From the IMG/VR virus record IMGVR_UViG_3300048930_000409, positions 1-64,000 of that record: a DNA stretch of 64,000 bases. One strand, 5' to 3'. Positions 25,674 to 51,789 of the stretch are shown here, piece after piece; the stretch's first letter is position 1, and every line of letters starts with the position of its first letter. The position numbers and the translations under genes were made by a program. This DNA comes from a virus. The notes below the pieces were generated by a model. The model was not told the origin of the DNA. It ran no database searches and was given only the letters and a program-made list of their open reading frames with translations.

Positions 25674-26531
25674 GTGAACTATACTGAAGAGATCGTCATC
25701 ATCGGCGGCGGCATGGTCGGGCGCGTAGCCCAGCGATACATGCCGGATGCCTTGATTCTGGATTGGGGGCCGCCCCCGGTCGCCACGCCCCGGCCACAGA
25801 CGTACGGCGCTATCTACTGGTGGGAGCCAGTTGCCGACCTGCCGTGTGTCCAGTTCCAGGTCCTGACCACCATCGACGGCGAGACGCCCACCCCCGAGGG
25901 CATTCGCGCGTACAAGGAACGCGTGGGCAAGGGATTCGAGGTCCAGACCCGGCCCGATGCCGTCGCCCGGCAGTTCCAGCCGCTGTCGCACGGGTATGCG
26001 CCGACGTCGTTCCCAGCGCCGTCCCGCATCATGTACCGCGCCAGAGTCGAGCGTATCGACCCCGACGTCCGCATGCTGCACATGGTGAACGGGGACACGT
26101 ACCTGTACACACACCTGGTGTCGACTATCCCGCTGCCGGCGCTGCTGAAGATGCTGCCGTTCGACGCCGTCGATCAGTTCGAGCATATGGAGTTCCGGTC
26201 GCGCCCCATCTTTGTCACGGTTGCTCCTGACGACCATGAAGCCCGCACCGTGCTCCAGGTCAACTACTCGACGACGGGCAATGCTTACCGCGAGACGCGG
26301 CATCTGGACGGGTCCACCCATCGGGAGTATGCTTCGGCGCCGATGTACACCGAGTTGCCCGTGAAAAAGCTGGTGCCGGGGCGCATCTACGACGCTTTGC
26401 AATCCGCCGAACTGTTGCTGCACCTGCGTGGGATGGCCATCCACAGCTTCGGCCGCTATGGTCGGTGGGACTCGGACGAGTTGCTGCACATGACCGACGC
26501 CCAGCTCCGGACGTTCGCGTCACTTCTCTAG
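25674..26531 (+). CDS. FAD-dependent oxidoreductase (UDP-galactopyranose-mutase/PPO-like)
   Basis: IIGGGMVG Rossmann motif, LVSTIPL, C-terminal GRYGRW. Confidence 0.75.
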   Translation: MNYTEEIVIIGGGMVGRVAQRYMPDALILDWGPPPVATPRPQTYGAIYWWEPVADLPCVQFQVLTTIDGETPTPEGIRAYKERVGKGFEVQTRPDAVARQFQPLSHGYAPTSFPAPSRIMYRARVERIDPDVRMLHMVNGDTYLYTHLVSTIPLPALLKMLPFDAVDQFEHMEFRSRPIFVTVAPDDHEARTVLQVNYSTTGNAYRETRHLDGSTHREYASAPMYTELPVKKLVPGRIYDALQSAELLLHLRGMAIHSFGRYGRWDSDELLHMTDAQLRTFASLL

Positions 26532-26539
26532 GAGACATC

Positions 26540-26674
26540 ATGAAGATACTTCGTGCCCTTTGGCGCCTGATCGTCAGCGACGACAAGCCATTCAGTCAGG
26601 AATGGATGGATTCCCTCAAGTACGACCGCCAGGGATGGGCGGACGCCCCCTCATGGAAGAGGCTGGGACGATGA
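26540..26674 (+). CDS. small hypothetical protein
   Basis: AGGAG SD, ATGA-coupled. Confidence 0.5.
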   Translation: MKILRALWRLIVSDDKPFSQEWMDSLKYDRQGWADAPSWKRLGR

Positions 26675-27642
26675 GCGAGTGGGGAAAGATCTGGCACGAC
26701 CAGTACGGGTTCAATCGGAAGTTTCGGCCCGACCCCGAGACGGACGCGGAACGAGCCGAGCAGGTCAAGGACATTGCCCTGTTGATGCAGTCTGAGATCC
26801 ATGAGTTGCTCCAGACCGTGGCGTGGAAGAAGCATCGGAAGGACACCCGGCACCGCCCGAACATGGCGCATAGCCATGAAGAACTCACGGACATCTTCAA
26901 GTACTTCGTAACGCTGTGCAACCTGTTTGATGTCACGCCAGAAGCGCTCCAGCGCTTGTACTGGGCTAAGTCGGCCGTGTGCGAGCAGCGATATGTCGAA
27001 GAGTGGGTGTCCGACTACGCGCGGGGCAACCTGCGGGCCAAGGTGGCCATCGTCGACCTGGACAACGTCATCTTTGACTACATCGATCACTTCGGCAACT
27101 TCCTGTACCTGCAGCCCCTGGGCGACGACGTACGGCTGACTCTGATTCGCCTGATCGGCGAACGCAAGTGGATCAGCGCCGAGTCGACAGGCATTCCGGT
27201 GTCGGTGTTCGAGGCGTACAAGCACATGTACCGGACCAGCGGCGCGAAGGCGCACCTGCCCTTGATGCCGTACGCCAAGGAATTTATGCAGGCGCTTCGC
27301 GGGTTGGGATACGTCATCATCGTTGTCACGTCACGGCCGATTGACCGCTACCCGAACCTGATGATGGACACGATTGCCAGTCTGAACCGACACGGCCTGC
27401 CGTACGACCACGTCTGGCACGGCCCGTCAAAGAAAACCGTCCTCGTCGAACGGCTGTCGCCGATGCCGTCGCAGATCTTCGCGATCGACGATGACCCGAA
27501 GTATGTCCAGGAATACGTCAGCCTGGGCATTCCTGTCTTCCATGTGTTGAACGGAGGGACGACCCCGCTGACACAGACGGTCGGGCGCGTACCCGTCGCC
27601 GACCTGGAAGATGCGTTGAACTGCCTGCACCTGATCGGATAG
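26671..27642 (+). CDS. all-alpha NTP pyrophosphatase (dimeric dUTPase/dCTPase/MazG-like) fused to HAD 5'-nucleotidase-like domain
   Basis: SEIHELL...WKKH...EELTDIFKY; then VDLDNVI, VTSRP, IDDDP. Confidence 0.8.
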   Translation: MSEWGKIWHDQYGFNRKFRPDPETDAERAEQVKDIALLMQSEIHELLQTVAWKKHRKDTRHRPNMAHSHEELTDIFKYFVTLCNLFDVTPEALQRLYWAKSAVCEQRYVEEWVSDYARGNLRAKVAIVDLDNVIFDYIDHFGNFLYLQPLGDDVRLTLIRLIGERKWISAESTGIPVSVFEAYKHMYRTSGAKAHLPLMPYAKEFMQALRGLGYVIIVVTSRPIDRYPNLMMDTIASLNRHGLPYDHVWHGPSKKTVLVERLSPMPSQIFAIDDDPKYVQEYVSLGIPVFHVLNGGTTPLTQTVGRVPVADLEDALNCLHLIG

Positions 27643-27647
27643 CACCC

Positions 27648-28802
27648 ATGCCTGACTACGCTGACGCGGGCCACCGCCCGCACGCCGACCACCGGGGGGA
27701 GACCCCTGACTTCAAGATCACGAATGGCCCCGAGTCCATTTCCGTGACGCTGGACACCTGGGGGCCTCGCGACTACTACTCCGCGATGTTCGACTACCTC
27801 CAGTCGAACTGGGGCGGGGCGCCGTCGCGGATTCAGGAGGCGTTGGACCACCCAGAAATTGACGTCGACCACGATGTCGAAGTGTACCTCGACGCGTGCT
27901 TCGGCGGGCGCACACTCCAGCAAGTGTTGGAGGGCATCACGTTCTGGTTCACCATCGACGGCGTAACTCGCGCCATGACTCATGAGATGGTGCGTGCTCG
28001 GTTCGCCGCGTTCATGCAGCATGGCGGGCGCGACAACGACTGGCGCCATCGGGACTGGACCATGCCCGAGACGATCCGCCGGGCCTCAGGCGCTCGCATG
28101 CCGCCGCATCCCACAGCGCCCTGGGACGGCAAACGAGGAAAAGACCGAGTCGACGCCAAGAACCAGTGGCTGAGAGAACAGCTTGACGCCGACCCGACAC
28201 TCCGGTGGACGTGTATCACCGACCACCAGCCTGTCGAAGCGCTGCTCGGCGCCTACGACGAAATCCTGCCCGATGACCGGTTCGGGTTGCAGGATGTCAT
28301 CGAACACCACCTCCGTGAAGGCAAGCGCATCTACGCCGCGCTGGTCGACGCAGGCATACCGTGGCAGGACGCGCGGCGGCTGCTGCCCATCGGCACGCAG
28401 ACGTACATCCACGGGATTTACAACTTCATTTCGTTGCGCGACTTCCTGGCCAACCGGATGGAGTTCATCATGGACTGGGAAATCAACTGCGTCGCGCAGC
28501 TGATGTACCGCGAGATCCTGATGAAGTGCCCGCCTCTCATCGGCAAGTACCTGGGGTCGCACTCCGACCGCCAGGGCCGTGCCGCGTTCGCCGGACTGGA
28601 CTCGTGGCCCCCGGACATGAAGTACCAGCCCACGTTCGAGCAGGAAGACCCCGTGCTGACGCCGCGCCAGCATCGCCGTGAGCAGATGCCGTTCTGGGTC
28701 CTGGCCCAGTCGTCGTTGGACGGCGGGCCGGTGAAGTGGATTCCCACGAACGGCACCTACCCCCACGACCATCCCGACGCCCCCAAGCCGAGGACTCGGT
28801 GA
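27648..28802 (+). CDS. ThyX-like flavin-dependent thymidylate synthase homolog with altered active site
   Basis: FTIDGVTRAMTHEMVRAR, DARRLLP, N..SL..FL..R, WEI; RHRx7S motif not intact. Confidence 0.8.
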   Translation: MPDYADAGHRPHADHRGETPDFKITNGPESISVTLDTWGPRDYYSAMFDYLQSNWGGAPSRIQEALDHPEIDVDHDVEVYLDACFGGRTLQQVLEGITFWFTIDGVTRAMTHEMVRARFAAFMQHGGRDNDWRHRDWTMPETIRRASGARMPPHPTAPWDGKRGKDRVDAKNQWLREQLDADPTLRWTCITDHQPVEALLGAYDEILPDDRFGLQDVIEHHLREGKRIYAALVDAGIPWQDARRLLPIGTQTYIHGIYNFISLRDFLANRMEFIMDWEINCVAQLMYREILMKCPPLIGKYLGSHSDRQGRAAFAGLDSWPPDMKYQPTFEQEDPVLTPRQHRREQMPFWVLAQSSLDGGPVKWIPTNGTYPHDHPDAPKPRTR

Positions 28803-29825: not shown

Positions 29826-29971
29826 TGGCGACATCGACCAATCCCCGTGACTGGAAAATCGAGTTGGCGTTGCTGCTCCGCGAGTTGACCGAGATCGCCA
29901 AGGTCGCGCGGGCCAGTTTGGAACAGGAAGCCGAGCACGCTCGGAAAATTCGGGAACGGTCCACGCGATGA
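29825..29971 (+). CDS. small helical protein
   Basis: 48 aa, coupled to both neighbours. Confidence 0.45.
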   Translation: MATSTNPRDWKIELALLLRELTEIAKVARASLEQEAEHARKIRERSTR

Positions 29972-30882
29972 AGGTCAGCGTCAAGCGCGTCGGGTCGCGG
30001 CCGGTCGACCATCCGTCCGAGGACCGCCCACAGCTGTGGCAAAAGTCCATGGCGGTGTGCATCCCGTCCTCGGGGCGGCCCGCGCTCTTGGCTAAGACGC
30101 TGCACACGCAACCGTTCCTGAACGACCGGTCCACCTTCATCGGCGTGGCCACTCACGAAGCCGCCGAGTACCGGACGATGCTTCGCACGGTCGCGCCGTC
30201 AGTCCGACTGGTGACGTACGACAACCCCGAGGGGTCTATTGCGGTCTGCCGTGAGCACTTGCGACAGGCCGCGTTGGACGCCATTCCTGGCGGCCGGATG
30301 GACCGCTTCTGGGTCGTCGTCACGGACGATAACGCGTCGTACTCGTACACGGCGCTCCAGACCTTGGTCGGGGTCGCGTCGTCGTGGCGGGAGCAGCCCT
30401 GCATCGTCGCAGGGATGCACGGCACGGCGGCGCACTTCGACCGTCACCGCATCGGAGAAATGGAGGTGCATGCCGGGTATCGATCCTATCCGCAGGTCGC
30501 CATGATCTTCCAAGTCTACCCCGCGTCGATGTACGCGGACTACGCGTATCCCGCTGATGCGTATGGACTGGATGACCGGCACCTGGCGTTTTGGGCCATT
30601 GCGAAAAAAGGTTTGACCCGTAGTCAATTCCGCGTTGCAATGGACGCACCGTTTCGGAAGTCGCGGTACCAAGCTGGCGGGCAAGGCGACGCGAGGAAAC
30701 GGGCACGAAAGACGGGGCTGGCCATCGCACGGTTGGCCCTGGACTTCCCTGAATTGGTCGGGACACGCGGCACGTTCCCGACTCCATGGCAAATCATCTT
30801 TGCCCTTGCCGAGGGCAAGCAGGTTGACCGGTTGGCGGCCGGCAGCATGCGTAGTGAATCCGCCTTGATCCACCAGGAGTAG
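29968..30882 (+). CDS. GT-A glycosyltransferase, TAGT/GREB1-like (putative DNA-base glycosyltransferase)
   Basis: VCIPSSGRP, E...Y, R, WVVVTDDN, DD..L, GG pattern. Confidence 0.65.
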   Translation: MKVSVKRVGSRPVDHPSEDRPQLWQKSMAVCIPSSGRPALLAKTLHTQPFLNDRSTFIGVATHEAAEYRTMLRTVAPSVRLVTYDNPEGSIAVCREHLRQAALDAIPGGRMDRFWVVVTDDNASYSYTALQTLVGVASSWREQPCIVAGMHGTAAHFDRHRIGEMEVHAGYRSYPQVAMIFQVYPASMYADYAYPADAYGLDDRHLAFWAIAKKGLTRSQFRVAMDAPFRKSRYQAGGQGDARKRARKTGLAIARLALDFPELVGTRGTFPTPWQIIFALAEGKQVDRLAAGSMRSESALIHQE

Positions 30883-30884
30883 TC

Positions 30885-31784
30885 GTGGCCAAGAAGACCG
30901 CAGCACCCCAGACCGATTTCCAGAAGGCTCTCAAGAAGTCCGGCGCCAACTGGGACTCCGCGCGTGAGAAGGCCGCCACCAGCAAGGGCGGCGCCTACCA
31001 GGAATTCGACGACGGCAAGTACCTCGCTCGCGTCCAGAAGATGGAGCCCGGCGTCAACACCAAGGGCCCCTACATCATGGTGATGTTCAAGTTCGTGGAC
31101 GGCGACTACGAGGGCCAGACCAAGCCGCTGTTCCAGAACCTCCAGACGGACGAGAACCTCTTCCACGCCGCCAAGCTGATCGGTTCCTTCGGGTACGAGA
31201 TCCCCGAGAACATCGCCGACATCGAGAGCATCTGCGAAGCCATCACGGCCGAAAAGCCGCTCTGCAAGATCACCATCAAGACCAAGGGCGAGTACCAGAA
31301 CGTCTTCCTCGACAAGGTCATCTCCAGCGACGAGGGCGACGAGGACGCCGAGGAGGAGGACGGCGACGAGGACGCCGAGGAGGAATCCGCCGAGGCCGAG
31401 GCCGAGGACGAGGACGAGACCGAGGAGGCCGACGAGGAGTCCGAGGAAGAGGAATCCGAGGACGAGGACGAGGACGAGGAAGAAGAGGAAGACGAGGAGG
31501 AGGCCGACGAGGACGACACGGCCGAACTCGAGATCGGCATGCGAGTCGAGGCCGAGACGGCCAAGGGCACGCGCCAGGGCGTCGTCCACAAGATGGACCC
31601 CGCCGCCGAGACCGTCAAGATCCGCGATGACGCGGGCAAGATCTTCACGGTGCCCGCCTCGGCCGTCTCGCTTCTGGCCGATGTCCCCGACGAGCCCGAA
31701 CCGCCTCCGGCCAAGCCGAAGGGCGTGAAGAAGCCGGCCGCCCCGGTGACCCCGGCGCCGACGACCAAGAAGAAGACCAAGTAG
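30885..31784 (+). CDS. SSB-like (DUF669-like) protein with acidic tract and C-terminal SH3/KOW-like domain
   Basis: DGKY...GPYIMVMFK..DGDYEG...GEYQNV; about 65-aa D/E tract; position near AAA ATPase. Confidence 0.65.
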   Translation: MAKKTAAPQTDFQKALKKSGANWDSAREKAATSKGGAYQEFDDGKYLARVQKMEPGVNTKGPYIMVMFKFVDGDYEGQTKPLFQNLQTDENLFHAAKLIGSFGYEIPENIADIESICEAITAEKPLCKITIKTKGEYQNVFLDKVISSDEGDEDAEEEDGDEDAEEESAEAEAEDEDETEEADEESEEEESEDEDEDEEEEEDEEEADEDDTAELEIGMRVEAETAKGTRQGVVHKMDPAAETVKIRDDAGKIFTVPASAVSLLADVPDEPEPPPAKPKGVKKPAAPVTPAPTTKKKTK

Positions 31785-37962: not shown

Positions 37963-38069
37963 TGAACGTACGGGGGGACGGCGGGCACCCGGCCACGGGC
38001 AAGGAGCAACAGACGCGGCCGGGACAACGGTGGCGAAGCGCTGGTGCCCGCCGCCCCCTCGTACGTTCA
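37963..38069. other. long inverted repeat at the convergence of the two transcription arms
   Basis: 27-bp arms 37963-37989 / 38043-38069 with 2 mismatches, plus an internal ccggcc/ggccgg stem. Confidence 0.7.
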
Positions 38070-38582
38070 CTTGGCAATGTCCGCGATGCGGTTCAGCCAG
38101 CCCTTCAAATTCGCCCGCTGCTTGGGCAACCGCCGCACCTCATCGTGACAGTGCCGCTCCCATTCGGCCCGGTACATCCGCCGCATGGCTACAGGGTCCG
38201 TAGCGCGATTGACGGCGCCCGCCGTGACCGGACCCACGACCCCGTCGACCGCGACGCCCACGATTCGCTGCAGACCGCGTGCCGCATCGTCGGGGCCGGA
38301 CATCACGCCCCAATGCACGGCCATCTCAGCCAGGGCGGCATCCTTCAACAACGAGAACCCCGGCCCCCGGATGTACCACGCCCGGTAGATCCGGATAGCC
38401 GTATCCCGTGTCAACGCCTGCATGTCGGCAAGGGTTGCGGTGCGCCTCAGCCACTTGGAGTAGGTGCGCCACGTGATGCCCCACTTGGTCAAGCCACCGA
38501 GATCCGTCGCGTGATTTGTCAGCTTCCCCGTCTCCCACCGGAGCACGGATTCCAGGATGGCGGATTCCTCGAGGTCGGTCAT
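38067..38582 (-). CDS. endolysin, glycoside hydrolase family 108 with PG-binding domain
   Basis: E..KLTNHATDLGGLTKWGIT...LQ..VGV.VDGVVGP.T...GWLNR. Confidence 0.9.
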   Translation of the reverse strand: MTDLEESAILESVLRWETGKLTNHATDLGGLTKWGITWRTYSKWLRRTATLADMQALTRDTAIRIYRAWYIRGPGFSLLKDAALAEMAVHWGVMSGPDDAARGLQRIVGVAVDGVVGPVTAGAVNRATDPVAMRRMYRAEWERHCHDEVRRLPKQRANLKGWLNRIADIAK

Positions 38583-49500: not shown

Positions 49501-51789
49501 CTTCACCCCCCAGCCGAGGTCTGCCATCGTCTGGTTGATTTGCTTGATACGCTCTTCGAGGGCGTTGGCCTTTTCGATTTCTCGGGCAATCGCTGACTCG
49601 CGATCCTCTTTCGTCGCACGGCGCCCACTTACGCCTGCAATGATTTCCGTGCCGTCCCCGATGGCCTTGGCACGGCGACGAAGAGTCTCGGCGGCGAGCG
49701 CGGCCTTCTCCTTCTCGATCCGCATGTCCTGCACGTTGAAGGCCAACTGCTCCTTCGCGGCCTGGATGTTGTTCCACCGCTGCGCCGCCTGCAGCTTCAA
49801 CGAATCCAGGAGCTCGTTGGACCGAGCCGTCTCGTTCTGGAACCCCTCGGCGCTGTACCCCGTCCACTTAGCCAACTCTTCCGTGGCACGGCGCAAGTTG
49901 TTCTTTTCTTCCTTGGTCAAGTTGACCTTCTTGGAGAGGTCGTCGTATACCCGAATGACCTCGGCCAACTTGGTTTCCATCTTCTCCAAGGATGCGGAAT
50001 TTTTCCCCATCTCGGCGACGGCCGCCGTGTTGTCTGTCTTCCACTTGTACAGCGCGATGCCTGTCGTCACGATGGCCGTTGCCAGCATGCCCCACGGCCC
50101 CGCCAGCCTAGGCAGGAAAGATGCCAACGTTCGGCCAACGTTCAGCATGCCAGTCCATGCGGCAGCCATCTTGCCGGTCCCCGTGACCATCACCGGCACC
50201 GTGTTCTGGGCAATCATCTTCCCGGTATCGGCGAACGAGTACATCGCGCCCCGGAGGCCCAGGATGGATGACGATGTCGTGGCCGATGCCACGGTGGTAG
50301 CCATCATCCCTGCAGACGCCGCCTTGGACCAATTGTTCCAGGCCGCGACCCCAGATGCCGCCGCCGATGCCGCGTTGACTACAGTGCCTGCCACGGTGCC
50401 CATGGCCCGTCCGTACACGACCGTAGCCGCGTGCCCGACCGTCAGGTAGTTCGTCGCCAGGTGGACCGCCGTCCCGAACGTCGAGATCGCCCGCAGCGGC
50501 ACCGCGACCCCCGCCCCCAGGGCACTGAGTGCCGACAGCATACCGCCCATGACATAGACGGCCGGACCCAACACGGCCAAGAATGCCGCCATGCCGAGCG
50601 CGGTCGACTTGACCGGACCAGGCAGCTGCGCGAACATCTTGAATACTTCACTCAGTACGCCGACACCAGTCTTCAGTGTCGGGAGCAAGTCATTCTTGAG
50701 AATAGGCAAGAAGTCCTGGAACAACTGAATACCAAGAATCTTTGCCGACTCCGTCACCTGCTTCAGCTGATTGGAGAACGCCTCCATCTGCTTCTTGGCG
50801 ACCCGTTCGGCCGTTCCCGCCACATCGCCCAGGATGCCTTCGAACCGCTGCATCTCCGGTCCCATGCCCAACAGGGCCTGAATCGCGCCCCGGCTCTTGT
50901 CCTGGAATCCGAGCAACGAGATCGCGGCGAACTTTTGCTGGGCGCTCATGCCCTCCGTATAGCGAGCAATGTCGTTGATGACTTCGCCCATGGAGCGCAA
51001 GTTGCCTTCGAGGTTGTAGACCTCGATGCCTTCCTTCTTCCACGTCTCGGCGTTCTTTACGGACGCTTTCTGCATGTCGCGCAGGGCGATGTACATCTGC
51101 TCGCCGGCGCGCTGACCCTTGATGTTCTGCGATGCGAACGCCATCAGGGCACTGACGCCCTGTTCGATGCTCAGCCCGTACTGGTTGATGGCACCACCCG
51201 CACGGGTGGAGATCGCCTTGGCGAAGTCTTCGACCGTGCCGAGCGCGGAGTTGTTGGCGGCGGTCAAGATGTCGGCCATCTTGGCCATACCCTCGACCTT
51301 GCCCGTCGTCCCGAGCGAGGCATCGCCGACCGCCGTCACCGCGCCGGCCAGGTAGTCGCCCGCGTCGGACAACTTCATGACACCGGCCTGTGCGAAGTTG
51401 GCAACGGTCTGCAACGACCCCATCGAGTCTTCAGCCGACAAGCCCGCCGATGCCAAGTCGTAGTACGCCTCGGCGGCCTCGGTCGCGCCGAACTTCGTGG
51501 ACCGCGCGACCGTGAACGCCGTTTCCTCCATCTGCTTGCGGAGGGCGTCGTTCATGTTGCTCATGATCGAGGTGGACTCGGTCATGGCCTTGTCAAAGTC
51601 GGCGCCGAACTTCCCAATCGCCCCGAGGGCGCCGGCCAAGGGTGCGGACACCCCGAAGGTGATCCGCGACCCCAGGCTGGCCAGGCGATTGCCCATCGCG
51701 TCGAACGTCCGCTCGACGCGGCTAACGTCGCCGGCGAGTGACCCGCTCTGGATTCCGACTCGTACGAGGATCTCTCCAACGGTAGGCAT
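46597..51789 (-). CDS. tail tape measure protein (TP901-type core)
   Basis: 1730 aa; T.FGA.EAAEA.Y.LASAG; Ala/Gly-rich helical. Confidence 0.95.
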   Translation of the reverse strand: MPTVGEILVRVGIQSGSLAGDVSRVERTFDAMGNRLASLGSRITFGVSAPLAGALGAIGKFGADFDKAMTESTSIMSNMNDALRKQMEETAFTVARSTKFGATEAAEAYYDLASAGLSAEDSMGSLQTVANFAQAGVMKLSDAGDYLAGAVTAVGDASLGTTGKVEGMAKMADILTAANNSALGTVEDFAKAISTRAGGAINQYGLSIEQGVSALMAFASQNIKGQRAGEQMYIALRDMQKASVKNAETWKKEGIEVYNLEGNLRSMGEVINDIARYTEGMSAQQKFAAISLLGFQDKSRGAIQALLGMGPEMQRFEGILGDVAGTAERVAKKQMEAFSNQLKQVTESAKILGIQLFQDFLPILKNDLLPTLKTGVGVLSEVFKMFAQLPGPVKSTALGMAAFLAVLGPAVYVMGGMLSALSALGAGVAVPLRAISTFGTAVHLATNYLTVGHAATVVYGRAMGTVAGTVVNAASAAASGVAAWNNWSKAASAGMMATTVASATTSSSILGLRGAMYSFADTGKMIAQNTVPVMVTGTGKMAAAWTGMLNVGRTLASFLPRLAGPWGMLATAIVTTGIALYKWKTDNTAAVAEMGKNSASLEKMETKLAEVIRVYDDLSKKVNLTKEEKNNLRRATEELAKWTGYSAEGFQNETARSNELLDSLKLQAAQRWNNIQAAKEQLAFNVQDMRIEKEKAALAAETLRRRAKAIGDGTEIIAGVSGRRATKEDRESAIAREIEKANALEERIKQINQTMADLGWGVKNRDIQLGKSTPVPGAPAGEPTGKPPETGPPTTPKADDRAAREPYERTRKSLMTAFLLDLYDMSEAVNEAVSQNTPMPLVLEAWGSEIDKLRVTGRAWGIEMIGNLKSVADASEALNNKNAFAMFDPASGQMTLDTSDLAYMNKLQQDTRDEYEALAQVARASNLAIQDSESSRVAATIQGIENERKAKIEGLKQTKAENAGAYAEAVTAINAEAQFRIDVVNRTADTIVFRMREAGILTNEAMKEAADGAETDFTQMADSGKFSAESIGKAWKKMYDAQIAMSGKFLGAWRAPLATLTQQFQQIAQTVGAGADSWVSFIAGIAGAGQAALTAGDMFSEGFAQFDKGWDMMKKKVAGGGQMMMDGMMGLASGMLAGVGALAQATSGDSLMKNMLGGASTGAMYGGAIGAGIAASMGKGMMVAGVWGAVAGAIVGIMVAYWRGRETRSIMEDVGQEWGGDISKGLADKIKKSKKQFGDQVAAGLYNMSDIVGEVGGWDANLDKIGKLRDVFVMLERGIFDAADAAKVLKDNFANIVTAVETTGRIAPPVIAEIIALNESMGVRSADVYKVLAEQTTKYSTALTGVFGGLSKQYGTLKTDMEAARKAVEDAQTALKDDDSDANRKAAQEANKALAELMAKQAQGAATAGDELARMGRLALAGFVAAEQGGMGTIAALDAMGPALDSLISMYQGLGLSMEGTAVAGLAEFRDRVNQNRELVDSASALNTMMMAASITGALNAESLADMETQGMQTYDSLIAAGFTENETLRLMQGYLQNVYEAHHQMGIPIDEATAKLIAQGIATGVIKDEQLSLNNILMSGLAALITALGGEVPAAWKGFVDKAKGGINEITNKTGELPDTIANQFRNMPTLKIPYEFEQQGDGPELPASERPDPTLNVPHLATGGIVYKPTLAMIGEREAEVVRPLRDDMHRSGSTQPNVDVWLDGRKIGGSSMRHGARYLRDRGVVRR

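What the first reader, a model, noticed from the sequence alone, without database searches (positions are those of the whole stretch)
27648..28802. ThyX homolog lacking the RHRx7S signature
Seen: THEMV-RAR-FAAFMQH-G-GRD where canonical ThyX has Q..RHR.......SxRY. By eye alignment to T. maritima ThyX, the equivalents of His53, His79, Ser88 and Tyr91 are replaced (L, A, G, D) while Arg78/80/90/147/174 appear kept; there is also a long insertion and a C-terminal extension. Inference: flavin and nucleotide binding are retained but chemistry or substrate has changed.
Basis: partly seen in the sequence, partly recalled or inferred. Interest (0 to 1): 0.75.

Follow-up and report, generated by a model that had tools for sequence, protein, structure and literature searches.

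The report
Rewritten phage ThyX with flavoprotein partner
An uncultured wastewater phage encodes a true relative of the flavin-dependent thymidylate synthase ThyX whose hallmark active-site residues have been replaced by a different, invariant loop, and which always sits behind a second flavoprotein and a nucleotide pyrophosphatase-phosphatase; it probably still supplies the phage's thymine-position nucleotide, by a mechanism or with a product that nobody has tested.

Summary
ORF 27648-28802 (+, 384 aa) is a ThyX-fold protein (Pfam Thy1 66.5 bits; model Z about 15 to Mtb and T. maritima ThyX) in which RHRx7S..RY reads RARx7G.RD and the His53 position is Leu. This is not decay: across 121 homologues of about 45-92% identity the loop MQHGGRDNDWR is invariant. 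The five nucleotide/flavin arginines are also invariant. The protein scores below NCBI's thyX equivalog cut-off (56.8 against 87.9).

It belongs to a large, mostly viral non-RHR branch of the family, which also holds Pbunavirus PB1 gp61. It is the only thymidylate-synthase-type gene in six near-complete phage genomes. In every long related locus it follows a UDP-galactopyranose-mutase-like flavoprotein and a MazG-HAD fusion, in that order.

I read it as an active flavin-dependent enzyme that adds a carbon to C5 of dUMP. Most likely it is a partner-assisted dTMP synthase (0.45). The main rival is the entry enzyme for a modified thymidine (0.33).

This scan has noted RTR-type ThyX with a flavoprotein partner before on other phage DNA. 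This subclade is distinct and has no cultured member.

The parts
27648..28802 (+). ThyX-like gene (384 aa), the finding itself
   Evidence: Pfam Thy1 66.5 bits against a cut-off of 24.8. AlphaFold model mean pLDDT 86.4. VIA Z 14-15 with about 210 residues aligned to Mtb and T. maritima ThyX. More than 300 homologues.
27648..27710 (+). N-terminal extension (residues 1-21) with invariant D6, H9, R10 and H12, absent from canonical ThyX
   Evidence: Alignment A1. Structural alignments to solved ThyX start at model residue 22-27.
27978..28052 (+). Rewritten signature and active-site loop, residues 111-135 (THEMVRARFAAFMQHGGRDNDWRHR)
   Evidence: Ungapped HMMER alignment to the Mtb ThyX signature. 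MQHGGRDNDWR is invariant in 121 sequences.
28059..28229 (+). Insertion of about 55 residues (about 138-194) relative to T. maritima ThyX; variable in length across the clade
28578..28799 (+). Conserved C-terminal extension (residues 311-384); 15 of 30 aligned relatives carry a CxxC...CxxC insertion here that the window's protein lacks
   Evidence: pLDDT 91-98 over this part.
26560..27642 (+). MazG/dUTPase_2-like NTP pyrophosphatase fused to a HAD phosphatase; it ends 5 nt before the ThyX-like start codon. The true start may be the internal ATG at 26671.
   Evidence: Weak Pfam dUTPase_2 and HAD hits; PHROG 415 at 6e-14. ExxE and DxDxV motifs are present. Found in 14 of 14 large related loci, always directly upstream.
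25674..26531 (+). Partner flavoprotein (285 aa), a minimal UDP-galactopyranose-mutase-like FAD enzyme
   Evidence: GGGxxG and FGRFAxW motifs. Model pLDDT 91. VIA Z about 20 with 277 of 285 residues aligned to eukaryotic UGMs, against Z 16 for PPO. Found in 14 of 14 large related loci in fixed order. Homologous to PB1 gp68.
29968..30882 (+). GT-A (GT2-like) glycosyltransferase, an accessory neighbour
   Evidence: Atlas structure matches of TM 0.60-0.71 over 225-246 residues. Present in 25 of 50 related loci, at varying positions.

Best explanation
The gene encodes an active enzyme of a virus-dominated, non-RHR branch of the ThyX fold. It still binds dUMP, activates its C5 and uses a reduced flavin to add a one-carbon unit.

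In this phage it is most likely the thymidylate (dTMP) synthase, but a remodelled one. Three elements of the cellular enzymes are gone:
- the folate/flavin-stacking His;
- the Ser and Tyr that help the flavin-carbinolamine hand over its carbon;
- half of the contacts to the FAD phosphates.
In their place stands an invariant loop, QHGGRDNDWRHR, together with new N- and C-terminal extensions.

I infer that it works in a three-gene cassette. The MazG domain upstream makes dUMP from dUTP. The UGM-like flavoprotein supplies or regenerates reduced flavin, or reducing equivalents, which canonical ThyX obtains from NADPH by itself.

Shown: fold, family branch, residue pattern, conservation and gene linkage. 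Inferred: activity, substrate, product and the partner's role.
For: - Fold and family.
- All five arginines that bind the dUMP phosphate and uracil O2/O4, and that face flavin N1/C2=O, are invariant in 121 homologues. Their roles come from PMC5003785, PMC8316439 and PMC11940539.
- The replaced positions are themselves invariant, which indicates selection for catalysis.
- It is the only Thy1 gene, and no ThyA is present, in the window's genome (CheckV 100%) and in five relatives' records, four of them at least 96% complete.
- It sits in the replication module.
- No phage dNMP kinase or hmU-DNA kinase is recognisable. That fits a product which host kinases accept.
- The non-RHR branch is broad. 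It includes phages such as Mycobacterium phage Onyinye, which has no adjacent flavoprotein within 5 kb. This favours a general housekeeping role.
- The eukaryotic UGMs that the partner resembles most can bind NAD(P)H directly (PDB 5vwt and 5vwu among the top hits).
Against: - S88A and Y91A/F in T. maritima ThyX slow the carbon-transfer or flavin-oxidation step by 100- to 1000-fold (PMC8316439, PMC11940539). Here these positions are Gly and Asp.
- The protein scores below the NCBIfam thyX equivalog cut-off.
- A HAD phosphatase fused to the NTP pyrophosphatase has no obvious use in plain dTMP synthesis.
- A GT-A glycosyltransferase lies in the same module in half of the clade.
- Pbunaviruses, which share the ThyX-variant/flavoprotein pair, carry modified thymidine whose biosynthetic genes are unknown (PMC12191111).
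- No member of the non-RHR branch has been assayed, as far as the searchable literature shows.
Confidence: 0.45

Rival explanations
1. It is the entry enzyme of a DNA base-modification pathway. It converts dUMP into 5-hydroxymethyl-dUMP or another 5-substituted dUMP instead of dTMP, either by trapping the exocyclic-methylene intermediate with water or by using a carbon donor other than CH2-THF. The MazG-HAD fusion would act like the dTTPase/dUTPase plus dTMPase of hmU phages. The glycosyltransferase, where present, and perhaps the flavoprotein would act later, possibly on DNA.
For: - Every known thymidine hypermodification pathway starts with a thymidylate-synthase homologue making 5-hmdUMP in the pool. 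Phage dTTPase and dTMPase deplete dT nucleotides, and hmdU is later converted in sequence-specific contexts to a hypermodified base or to thymine (PMC8989533). The NTP-pyrophosphatase/phosphatase fusion directly upstream fits that logic.
- The residues lost are those of canonical carbon hand-over and folate stacking.
- ThyX flavin can use free formaldehyde (PMC8316439).
- A GT-A glycosyltransferase lies in the replication module of half the clade.
- The partner resembles UGM, an enzyme whose reduced flavin N5 forms covalent sugar adducts.
- The same ThyX-variant/flavoprotein pair occurs in Pbunaviruses. About a quarter of their T is a sugar-type derivative of unknown origin (PMC12191111).
- Kropinski et al. 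proposed a second Thy1-family protein of phage SP-15 as a hydroxymethyluridylate synthase (PMC5977210).
Against: - No dNMP kinase, hmU-DNA kinase, aGPT-Pplase or other known downstream enzyme is recognisable.
- The glycosyltransferase is missing from half of the clade.
- The lost residues would also be needed by a hydroxymethylase, so their loss does not point to this product.
- The HAD domain is closest to the PNK-phosphatase type, not to a proven dTMPase.
- An AG/CT-free stretch elsewhere in the genome cannot be tied to modification. PB1, which marks T in TG, has no TG/CA-free stretch.
- There are no data on the DNA of any clade member.
Confidence: 0.33
2. It acts on a different substrate: dCMP or CMP (giving a 5-methyl or 5-hydroxymethyl cytosine nucleotide), UMP as PolB does, or a uracil or thymine within DNA or RNA instead of a free nucleotide.
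For: - PolB shows that the fold can shift towards UMP (PMC5003785).
- The new basic and aromatic residues in the loop (W132, R133, H134, R135) and the extensions could form a new binding surface.
Against: - The arginines equivalent to R90 and R174, which donate hydrogen bonds to uracil O4 and O2, are invariant. They would clash with the cytosine N4 amino group.
- All three 5'-phosphate arginines are kept, as expected for a mononucleotide.
- PolB itself keeps the Ser and Tyr of the canonical motif (Ser96, Tyr99; PMC5003785).
Confidence: 0.1
3. It is a catalytically dead ThyX relative kept for a structural or regulatory role, for example nucleotide sensing or scaffolding of the replication complex.
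For: Several residues that are important in the cellular enzymes are missing.
Against: - The substrate-binding arginines and a 13-residue polar loop in the active-site position are invariant across sequences of only about 45-55% identity. This is the pattern of a working active site.
- The gene is tightly coupled to two other enzymes of nucleotide and flavin chemistry.
Confidence: 0.05

Closest known systems
Canonical flavin-dependent thymidylate synthase ThyX/FDTS (T. maritima TM0449, M. tuberculosis Rv2754c; Pfam PF02511, TIGR02170)
   Same: - Same fold over the whole catalytic domain (Z 14-15, about 210 residues).
- Same arginines for the dUMP phosphate, uracil O2/O4 and flavin N1/C2=O.
- Same Glu58, Trp181 and Glu182 equivalents.
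   Different: - The His53, Ser/Thr55, His59, His79, Ser88, Tyr91, Arg165 and Gln180 equivalents are replaced (L, Q, variable, T/A/S, G, D, non-basic, D).
- It has an N-terminal extension, a 55-residue insertion and a 74-residue C-terminal extension.
- It scores below the equivalog cut-off.
- It is always linked to a second flavoprotein.
Pbunavirus-type 'RTR' ThyX (Pseudomonas phage PB1 gp61) with PB1 gp68
   Same: - Same non-RHR superclade.
- hhalign probability 97%, with a shared THQLVRTR motif.
- PB1 gp68 is homologous to the partner flavoprotein (probability 96%).
- PB1 also encodes HAD and MazG proteins nearby.
   Different: - Only 26% identity.
- A different active-site loop (YQQETSRALE against FMQHGGRDNDWRHR).
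- A different sub-branch of the tree.
- The genes are not adjacent in the same order.
- PB1 relatives have experimentally shown modified thymidine (PMC12191111); nothing is known about the DNA of this clade.
PolB, the UMP/dUMP C5-methylase of polyoxin biosynthesis (PDB 4P5A/4P5B)
   Same: A ThyX-fold enzyme with a function other than housekeeping; similar structural match (Z about 14).
   Different: PolB keeps the Ser and Tyr of the canonical motif (Ser96, Tyr99) and still methylates. Its specificity shift comes from two extra loops (PMC5003785).
ThyA-family dUMP/dCMP hydroxymethylases of hmU and T-even phages, with their dTTPase/dTMPase or dCTPase helpers
   Same: A phage thymidylate-synthase homologue placed next to nucleotide-pool-clearing hydrolases (PMC8989533). 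This is the logic of the rival reading.
   Different: An unrelated fold and a folate-only mechanism. Those phages also encode a dNMP kinase, which is not seen here.
Bacillus phage SP-15 gp130, a second Thy1-family protein proposed as a hydroxymethyluridylate synthase (PMC5977210)
   Same: A divergent Thy1-family protein in a phage, suggested in print to make something other than dTMP.
   Different: It is a hypothesis only. An SP-15 'thymidylate synthetase' model is a weak structural match here (BFVD rank 19, TMq 0.34). No relation to this clade beyond the fold is shown.

Membership tests
Thy1/ThyX fold family (Pfam PF02511) | Significant match to the family profile | tested here: met
   66.5 bits against a gathering cut-off of 24.8, E 3.4e-18.
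Thy1/ThyX fold family (Pfam PF02511) | ThyX three-dimensional fold over the catalytic domain | tested here: met
   Model pLDDT 86. VIA Z 15.0, rmsd 3.4 A, 212 residues aligned to 3gwc. T. maritima residues 5-217 align to model residues 27-310.
ThyX thymidylate synthase proper (equivalog TIGR02170) | Score above the curated equivalog cut-off | tested here: not met
   56.8 bits against a cut-off of 87.9.
ThyX thymidylate synthase proper (equivalog TIGR02170) | Signature RHRx7S with a following R-[Y/H/F] | tested here: not met
   The window reads R-A-R x7 G-G-R-D. In 28 canonical representatives H, S and an aromatic or His residue are each at 100%. In the clade these positions are T/A/S, G at 100%, and D/N.
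ThyX thymidylate synthase proper (equivalog TIGR02170) | His53 equivalent that stacks on folate and reduced flavin, within the GH.S..EH motif | tested here: not met
   Leu in 120 of 121 sequences. The Ser/Thr55 position is Q/N and the His59 position is variable. The register is taken from the E58 anchor.
ThyX thymidylate synthase proper (equivalog TIGR02170) | Arginines for the dUMP phosphate and uracil (R78, R80, R90, R147, R174) | tested here: met
   R116, R118, R128, R243 and R270 are invariant in 121 sequences.
ThyX thymidylate synthase proper (equivalog TIGR02170) | Second-subunit contacts to the FAD phosphates and ribityl (Mtb Ser71 and Arg190) | tested here: not met
   These positions are Q92 and I261 (L/V/I/P/Q across the clade). 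Roles are from PMC6514825.
ThyX thymidylate synthase proper (equivalog TIGR02170) | Makes dTMP from dUMP, CH2-THF and NADPH; complements thyA | not testable with these tools
   This needs the genetic and biochemical tests listed under decisive next steps.
ThyX thymidylate synthase proper (equivalog TIGR02170) | Homotetramer with active sites shared between subunits | not tested
Viral non-RHR ('RTR-type') ThyX branch, as defined here | Groups with R-[T/A/S]-R sequences, apart from canonical RHR enzymes, in a tree | tested here: met
   The split between a 43-row set (37 RHR) and a 92-row non-RHR set has SH-aLRT 97. The query lies in a 24-row subclade with support 98. The tree is midpoint-rooted and sampled from the query's own hits.
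hmU-phage type pool pathway (TS homologue + dTTPase/dTMPase + dNMP kinase) | Phage dNMP kinase and dCMP deaminase accompany the synthase | tested here: inconclusive
   Pfam scans of 37 window ORFs and a Walker A scan of all 97 called ORFs recognised none. Many small ORFs remain unassigned.

The most novel reading that the evidence does not exclude
The ThyX-like enzyme, together with its UGM-like flavoprotein partner, attaches something other than a methyl group to C5 of dUMP. This could be a hydroxymethyl group or a sugar-derived polyol chain, added by reductive alkylation with an aldose in place of formaldehyde. By my own arithmetic, dU (228) plus a pentose (150) minus O (16) gives 362, the mass reported for the phage F8 nucleoside. 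If so, this would be the first ThyX-fold enzyme with a non-methyl product. It would also be the missing entry step for the sugar-type thymidine modifications of Pbunaviruses, and by extension for a large uncultured phage group.
Probability: 0.3. Interest if true: 0.85.

Novelty: new variant of a known kind. Interest (0 to 1): 0.6.

Why it matters
The RHRx7S motif, His53 and Tyr91 are treated as defining and mechanistically important for flavin-dependent thymidylate synthases. They are also used as anchors for drug design.

A large, strongly conserved viral branch that lacks them but keeps the substrate arginines means one of two things. Either the accepted catalytic roles can be taken over by quite different residues and a partner protein, or the fold has been recruited for new nucleotide chemistry.

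Either result would be informative. The second would give a concrete candidate for the unknown biosynthesis of the modified thymidines recently found in therapeutic Pseudomonas phages. The cassette (flavoprotein, MazG-HAD, ThyX-like) is small enough to test directly in E. coli.

Tried and rejected
- tblastn of the protein against 50,697 GenBank phage records found nothing at E 1e-5. The clade has no cultured member in that collection.
- A scan of one genome per prokaryote species for the clade's motifs found no relative, so no prophage or host clue came from there.
- A search for longer, fused forms found none.
- Complex prediction on the ThyX-like protein plus the flavoprotein gave no verdict (score 0.00). 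I do not use it either way.
- I tested whether the 968-nt AG/CT-free stretch elsewhere in this genome is a footprint of context-specific thymidine modification. PB1, whose T is marked in TG, shows no TG/CA-free stretch, so I dropped this as evidence about the gene.
- Sequencing-run search: only assembled wastewater contigs hold the phage and no raw long reads are served. No read-level test for modified bases was possible, and read laying was not used.
- Three papers I wanted were not held: Mishanina 2016, Koehn 2012 and Ulmer 2008. Their content is cited only through papers that quote them.
- Decay or pseudogene was rejected because of the invariance. A cytosine substrate was largely rejected because the O4/O2-binding arginines are kept.

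Full report
WHAT IS THERE

The window is the first 64 kb of a 76,211-bp IMG/VR virus record that CheckV rates complete. Its GC content is about 64%. Sequence matching it turns up only in wastewater metagenome contigs; one run holds 60% of the sampled words and may be the source sample.

ORF 27648-28802 (+) encodes 384 residues. It lies in the replication module. The gene order there is:
- SNF2 helicase
- PD-(D/E)XK nuclease
- a 285-aa flavoprotein
- a MazG-HAD fusion
- this gene
- a Sak4-like AAA_24 ATPase
- a GT-A glycosyltransferase
- an SSB-like protein
- a family A DNA polymerase
- a primase-helicase
.

The protein matches Pfam Thy1 at 66.5 bits against a cut-off of 24.8. A model built from 30 homologues has mean pLDDT 86. 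It superposes on M. tuberculosis and T. maritima ThyX with Z 14-15 over about 210 residues, and T. maritima residues 5-217 map to model residues 27-310.

HMMER aligns residues 93-125 without gaps to the Mtb segment that carries the signature. RHR is RAR there. In the same register the motif Ser falls on Gly126 and the RY pair on R128-D129, which the MAFFT table confirms. The C-terminal half aligns to T. maritima ThyX, which places R147 on R243 and R174 on R270. The His53 equivalent is Leu90, read by register from the conserved Glu.

An insertion of about 55 residues, a 74-residue C-terminal extension and a 21-residue N-terminal extension are all present and conserved.

IT IS A SELECTED STATE, NOT DECAY

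More than 300 metagenomic proteins match at 45-92% identity, many of them on contigs of 55-78 kb. Across the window's protein plus the 120 listed hits:
- the loop M-Q-H-G-G-R-D-N-D-W-R is invariant;
- position 117 is T, A, S or N and never H;
- position 126 is always G;
- position 129 is always D;
- position 90 is L in 120;
- R116, R118, R128, R243 and R270 are invariant
.

Compared with 28 canonical representatives, about eight of the canonical near-invariant positions I tabulated are replaced. These are the equivalents of H53, S/T55, H59, H79, S88, Y91, R165 and Q180. The substrate arginines and the E58, W181 and E182 equivalents are kept. The protein falls below the NCBIfam thyX equivalog cut-off, at 56.8 bits against 87.9.

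WHERE IT SITS IN THE FAMILY

An exhaustive search of 1.84 billion representatives gave 29 clusters at E below 1e-30, 83 below 1e-10 and 761 below 1e-3. Read along that gradient, the sequences run from this clade, through a broad set of 270-340-aa proteins, to canonical 200-250-aa ThyX. The broad set has THQLVR-[T/A/S]-R, no GH.S..EH motif and WEIN in place of WEIR.

A tree separates a canonical set of 43 rows (37 of them RHR) from a non-RHR set of 92 rows with SH-aLRT 97. The query lies in a 24-row subclade with support 98. PB1 gp61 lies in another sub-branch. The tree is midpoint-rooted and its sampling is biased towards the query.

Cultured phages of the wider branch include Pbunaviruses, Wifcevirus coliphages, a Serratia phage and Mycobacterium phage Onyinye. 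The window's own subclade has no hit among 50,697 GenBank phage records. It also has none in one genome per prokaryote species.

CONTEXT

In all 14 related loci of 15 kb or more, the flavoprotein, the MazG-HAD fusion and the ThyX-like gene are present. In 18 loci of 12 kb or more they are contiguous in that order. This holds even though identity falls to 28-43% for the partners.

The window's genome and five relatives' records (four of them at least 96% complete) contain one Thy1 gene each and no ThyA.

The flavoprotein has the GGGxxG and FGRFAxW motifs. Its model (pLDDT 91) aligns almost end to end with eukaryotic UDP-galactopyranose mutases: Z about 20, 277 of 285 residues. That stands above protoporphyrinogen oxidases (Z 16) and bacterial UGMs (Z about 15-16).

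The MazG-HAD fusion has the ExxE and DxDxV catalytic motifs. It gives weak dUTPase_2/MazG and PNK-phosphatase-type HAD matches.

The 304-aa neighbour has a GT-A fold. It is present in half of the related loci, at varying positions.

PB1 gp61 and PB1 gp68 are homologues of the ThyX-like protein and of the flavoprotein (hhalign probabilities 97% and 96%). The pairing is therefore older than this clade. It is not universal, however: Onyinye has no flavoprotein homologue within 5 kb.

WHAT THE RESIDUE PATTERN MEANS

From the literature:
- R78 faces N1/C2=O of the reduced flavin. H53 stacks on the reduced isoalloxazine or on folate and is hydrogen-bonded to Y91. Y91F slows flavin oxidation about 1000-fold (PMC11940539).
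- S88 and Y91 are thought to assist attack of dUMP on the flavin N5-carbinolamine. S88A, R90A and Y91A all slow that step. R174 activates dUMP. ThyX can use free formaldehyde (PMC8316439).
- The RHR motif plus Mtb Ser71 and Arg190 hold the FAD phosphates and ribityl (PMC6514825).
- In PolB the equivalent arginines bind the phosphate and uracil O2 and O4 (PMC5003785).

Here the nucleotide site and the isoalloxazine anchor are intact. That argues for a uracil mononucleotide substrate and a flavin at the usual place. The folate/flavin gate, the leaving-group helpers and half of the contacts to the ADP part of FAD have been exchanged for a new polar loop and extensions.

A dTMP synthase and a hydroxymethylase would both need the lost steps. 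So the pattern points to a different carbon or electron hand-over, not to a particular product.

HOW IT MOST LIKELY WORKS

My best reading (0.45) is a partner-assisted thymidylate synthase. The MazG domain provides dUMP. The ThyX-like enzyme transfers a methylene from reduced flavin N5 to C5 and reduces it. The UGM-like flavoprotein provides the reduced flavin or reducing equivalents that the remodelled enzyme can no longer obtain in the canonical way. Three things support this:
- it is the only thymidylate-synthase-type gene in these phages;
- no phage kinase for an unusual nucleotide is visible;
- the non-RHR branch is broad.

The main rival (0.33) is that it makes 5-hmdUMP or another 5-substituted dUMP as the first step of a DNA modification. 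This follows the established scheme, in which a synthase homologue plus dTTPase and dTMPase replace dTTP, and the base is later processed in sequence-specific contexts (PMC8989533). That scheme also answers the objection that a pool enzyme cannot give context-specific marks. Four further observations fit this rival:
- the HAD fusion;
- the glycosyltransferase;
- the UGM-like chemistry of the partner;
- the modified thymidines of Pbunaviruses, whose biosynthetic genes are unknown (PMC12191111).
None of these is decisive, and nothing is known about the DNA of any clade member.

Another substrate (0.10) and a dead enzyme (0.05) are less likely, for the reasons given under the rival explanations.

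COMPARISON AND NOVELTY

The protein is a member of the ThyX fold family. It fails several defining features of ThyX proper: the signature, the His53 equivalent, the FAD contacts and the equivalog score. It should therefore not be annotated as thyX by transfer.

I found no paper that characterises a non-RHR ThyX. The nearest in print is the untested proposal that a second Thy1-family protein of phage SP-15 is a hydroxymethyluridylate synthase (PMC5977210).

Earlier notes of this scan described RTR-type ThyX with a flavoprotein partner in Pbunavirus-like phages and coliphages. I checked that link myself. The window's subclade is a separate lineage, with its own invariant loop and a fixed three-gene order. 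I rate it a new variant of a known kind.

Noticed in passing
genome positions 74045-75012 (about 10 kb beyond the window's end): A 968-nt stretch contains no AG or CT dinucleotide on either strand, where the next-longest such run is 88 nt. AG/CT is also the most depleted pair genome-wide apart from TA (observed/expected 0.79). It is mildly depleted (0.74-0.96) in most relatives' replication modules. PB1, which marks T in TG, shows no comparable TG/CA-free run.
   Followed up: partly
A1 alignment columns about 393-450; between window residues about 331 and 337 (28638-28658): Fifteen of 30 clade members carry a CxxC...CxxC (zinc-ribbon-like) insertion in the C-terminal extension. The window's protein lacks it. 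PB1 gp61 and Mycobacterium phage Onyinye gp86 also have Cys-rich C-terminal extensions.
   Followed up: no
protein P0101 (510 aa, a clade member from a 52.6-kb contig): It is a ThyX-like protein fused to a C-terminal PF00550 (phosphopantetheine-binding, ACP-like) domain. The usual Asp-Ser-Leu attachment motif reads Asp-Glu-Leu in it.
   Followed up: no
window 29968-30882 (+): A 304-aa protein with no Pfam or PHROG match but a GT-A/GT2-like predicted fold sits between the Sak4-like ATPase and the SSB-like gene. It is present in 25 of 50 related loci, at varying positions in the module.
   Followed up: partly
window 30885-31784 (+): An SSB-like protein (weak PHROG match) has a very long Asp/Glu-rich central tract of about 70 residues. 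It is conserved in all large related loci.
   Followed up: no
window 38067-38582 (-): An endolysin with a GH108 domain and a PG_binding_3 domain. By my own recollection this combination is commonest in phages of Gram-negative bacteria, but the host of this phage remains unknown.
   Followed up: no
Pseudomonas phage PB1 (NC_011810), about 50,530-51,170: A run of about 540 nt contains neither AT nor TA dinucleotides, across the gp69 coding region. It was seen while computing dinucleotide-free runs as a control.
   Followed up: no
window 26560-27642 (+): The longest ORF of the MazG-HAD gene starts at a TTG. An internal ATG at 26671 (MSEWGKIW...) may be the true start. Orthologue lengths (317-370 aa for most) do not settle it.
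   Followed up: no
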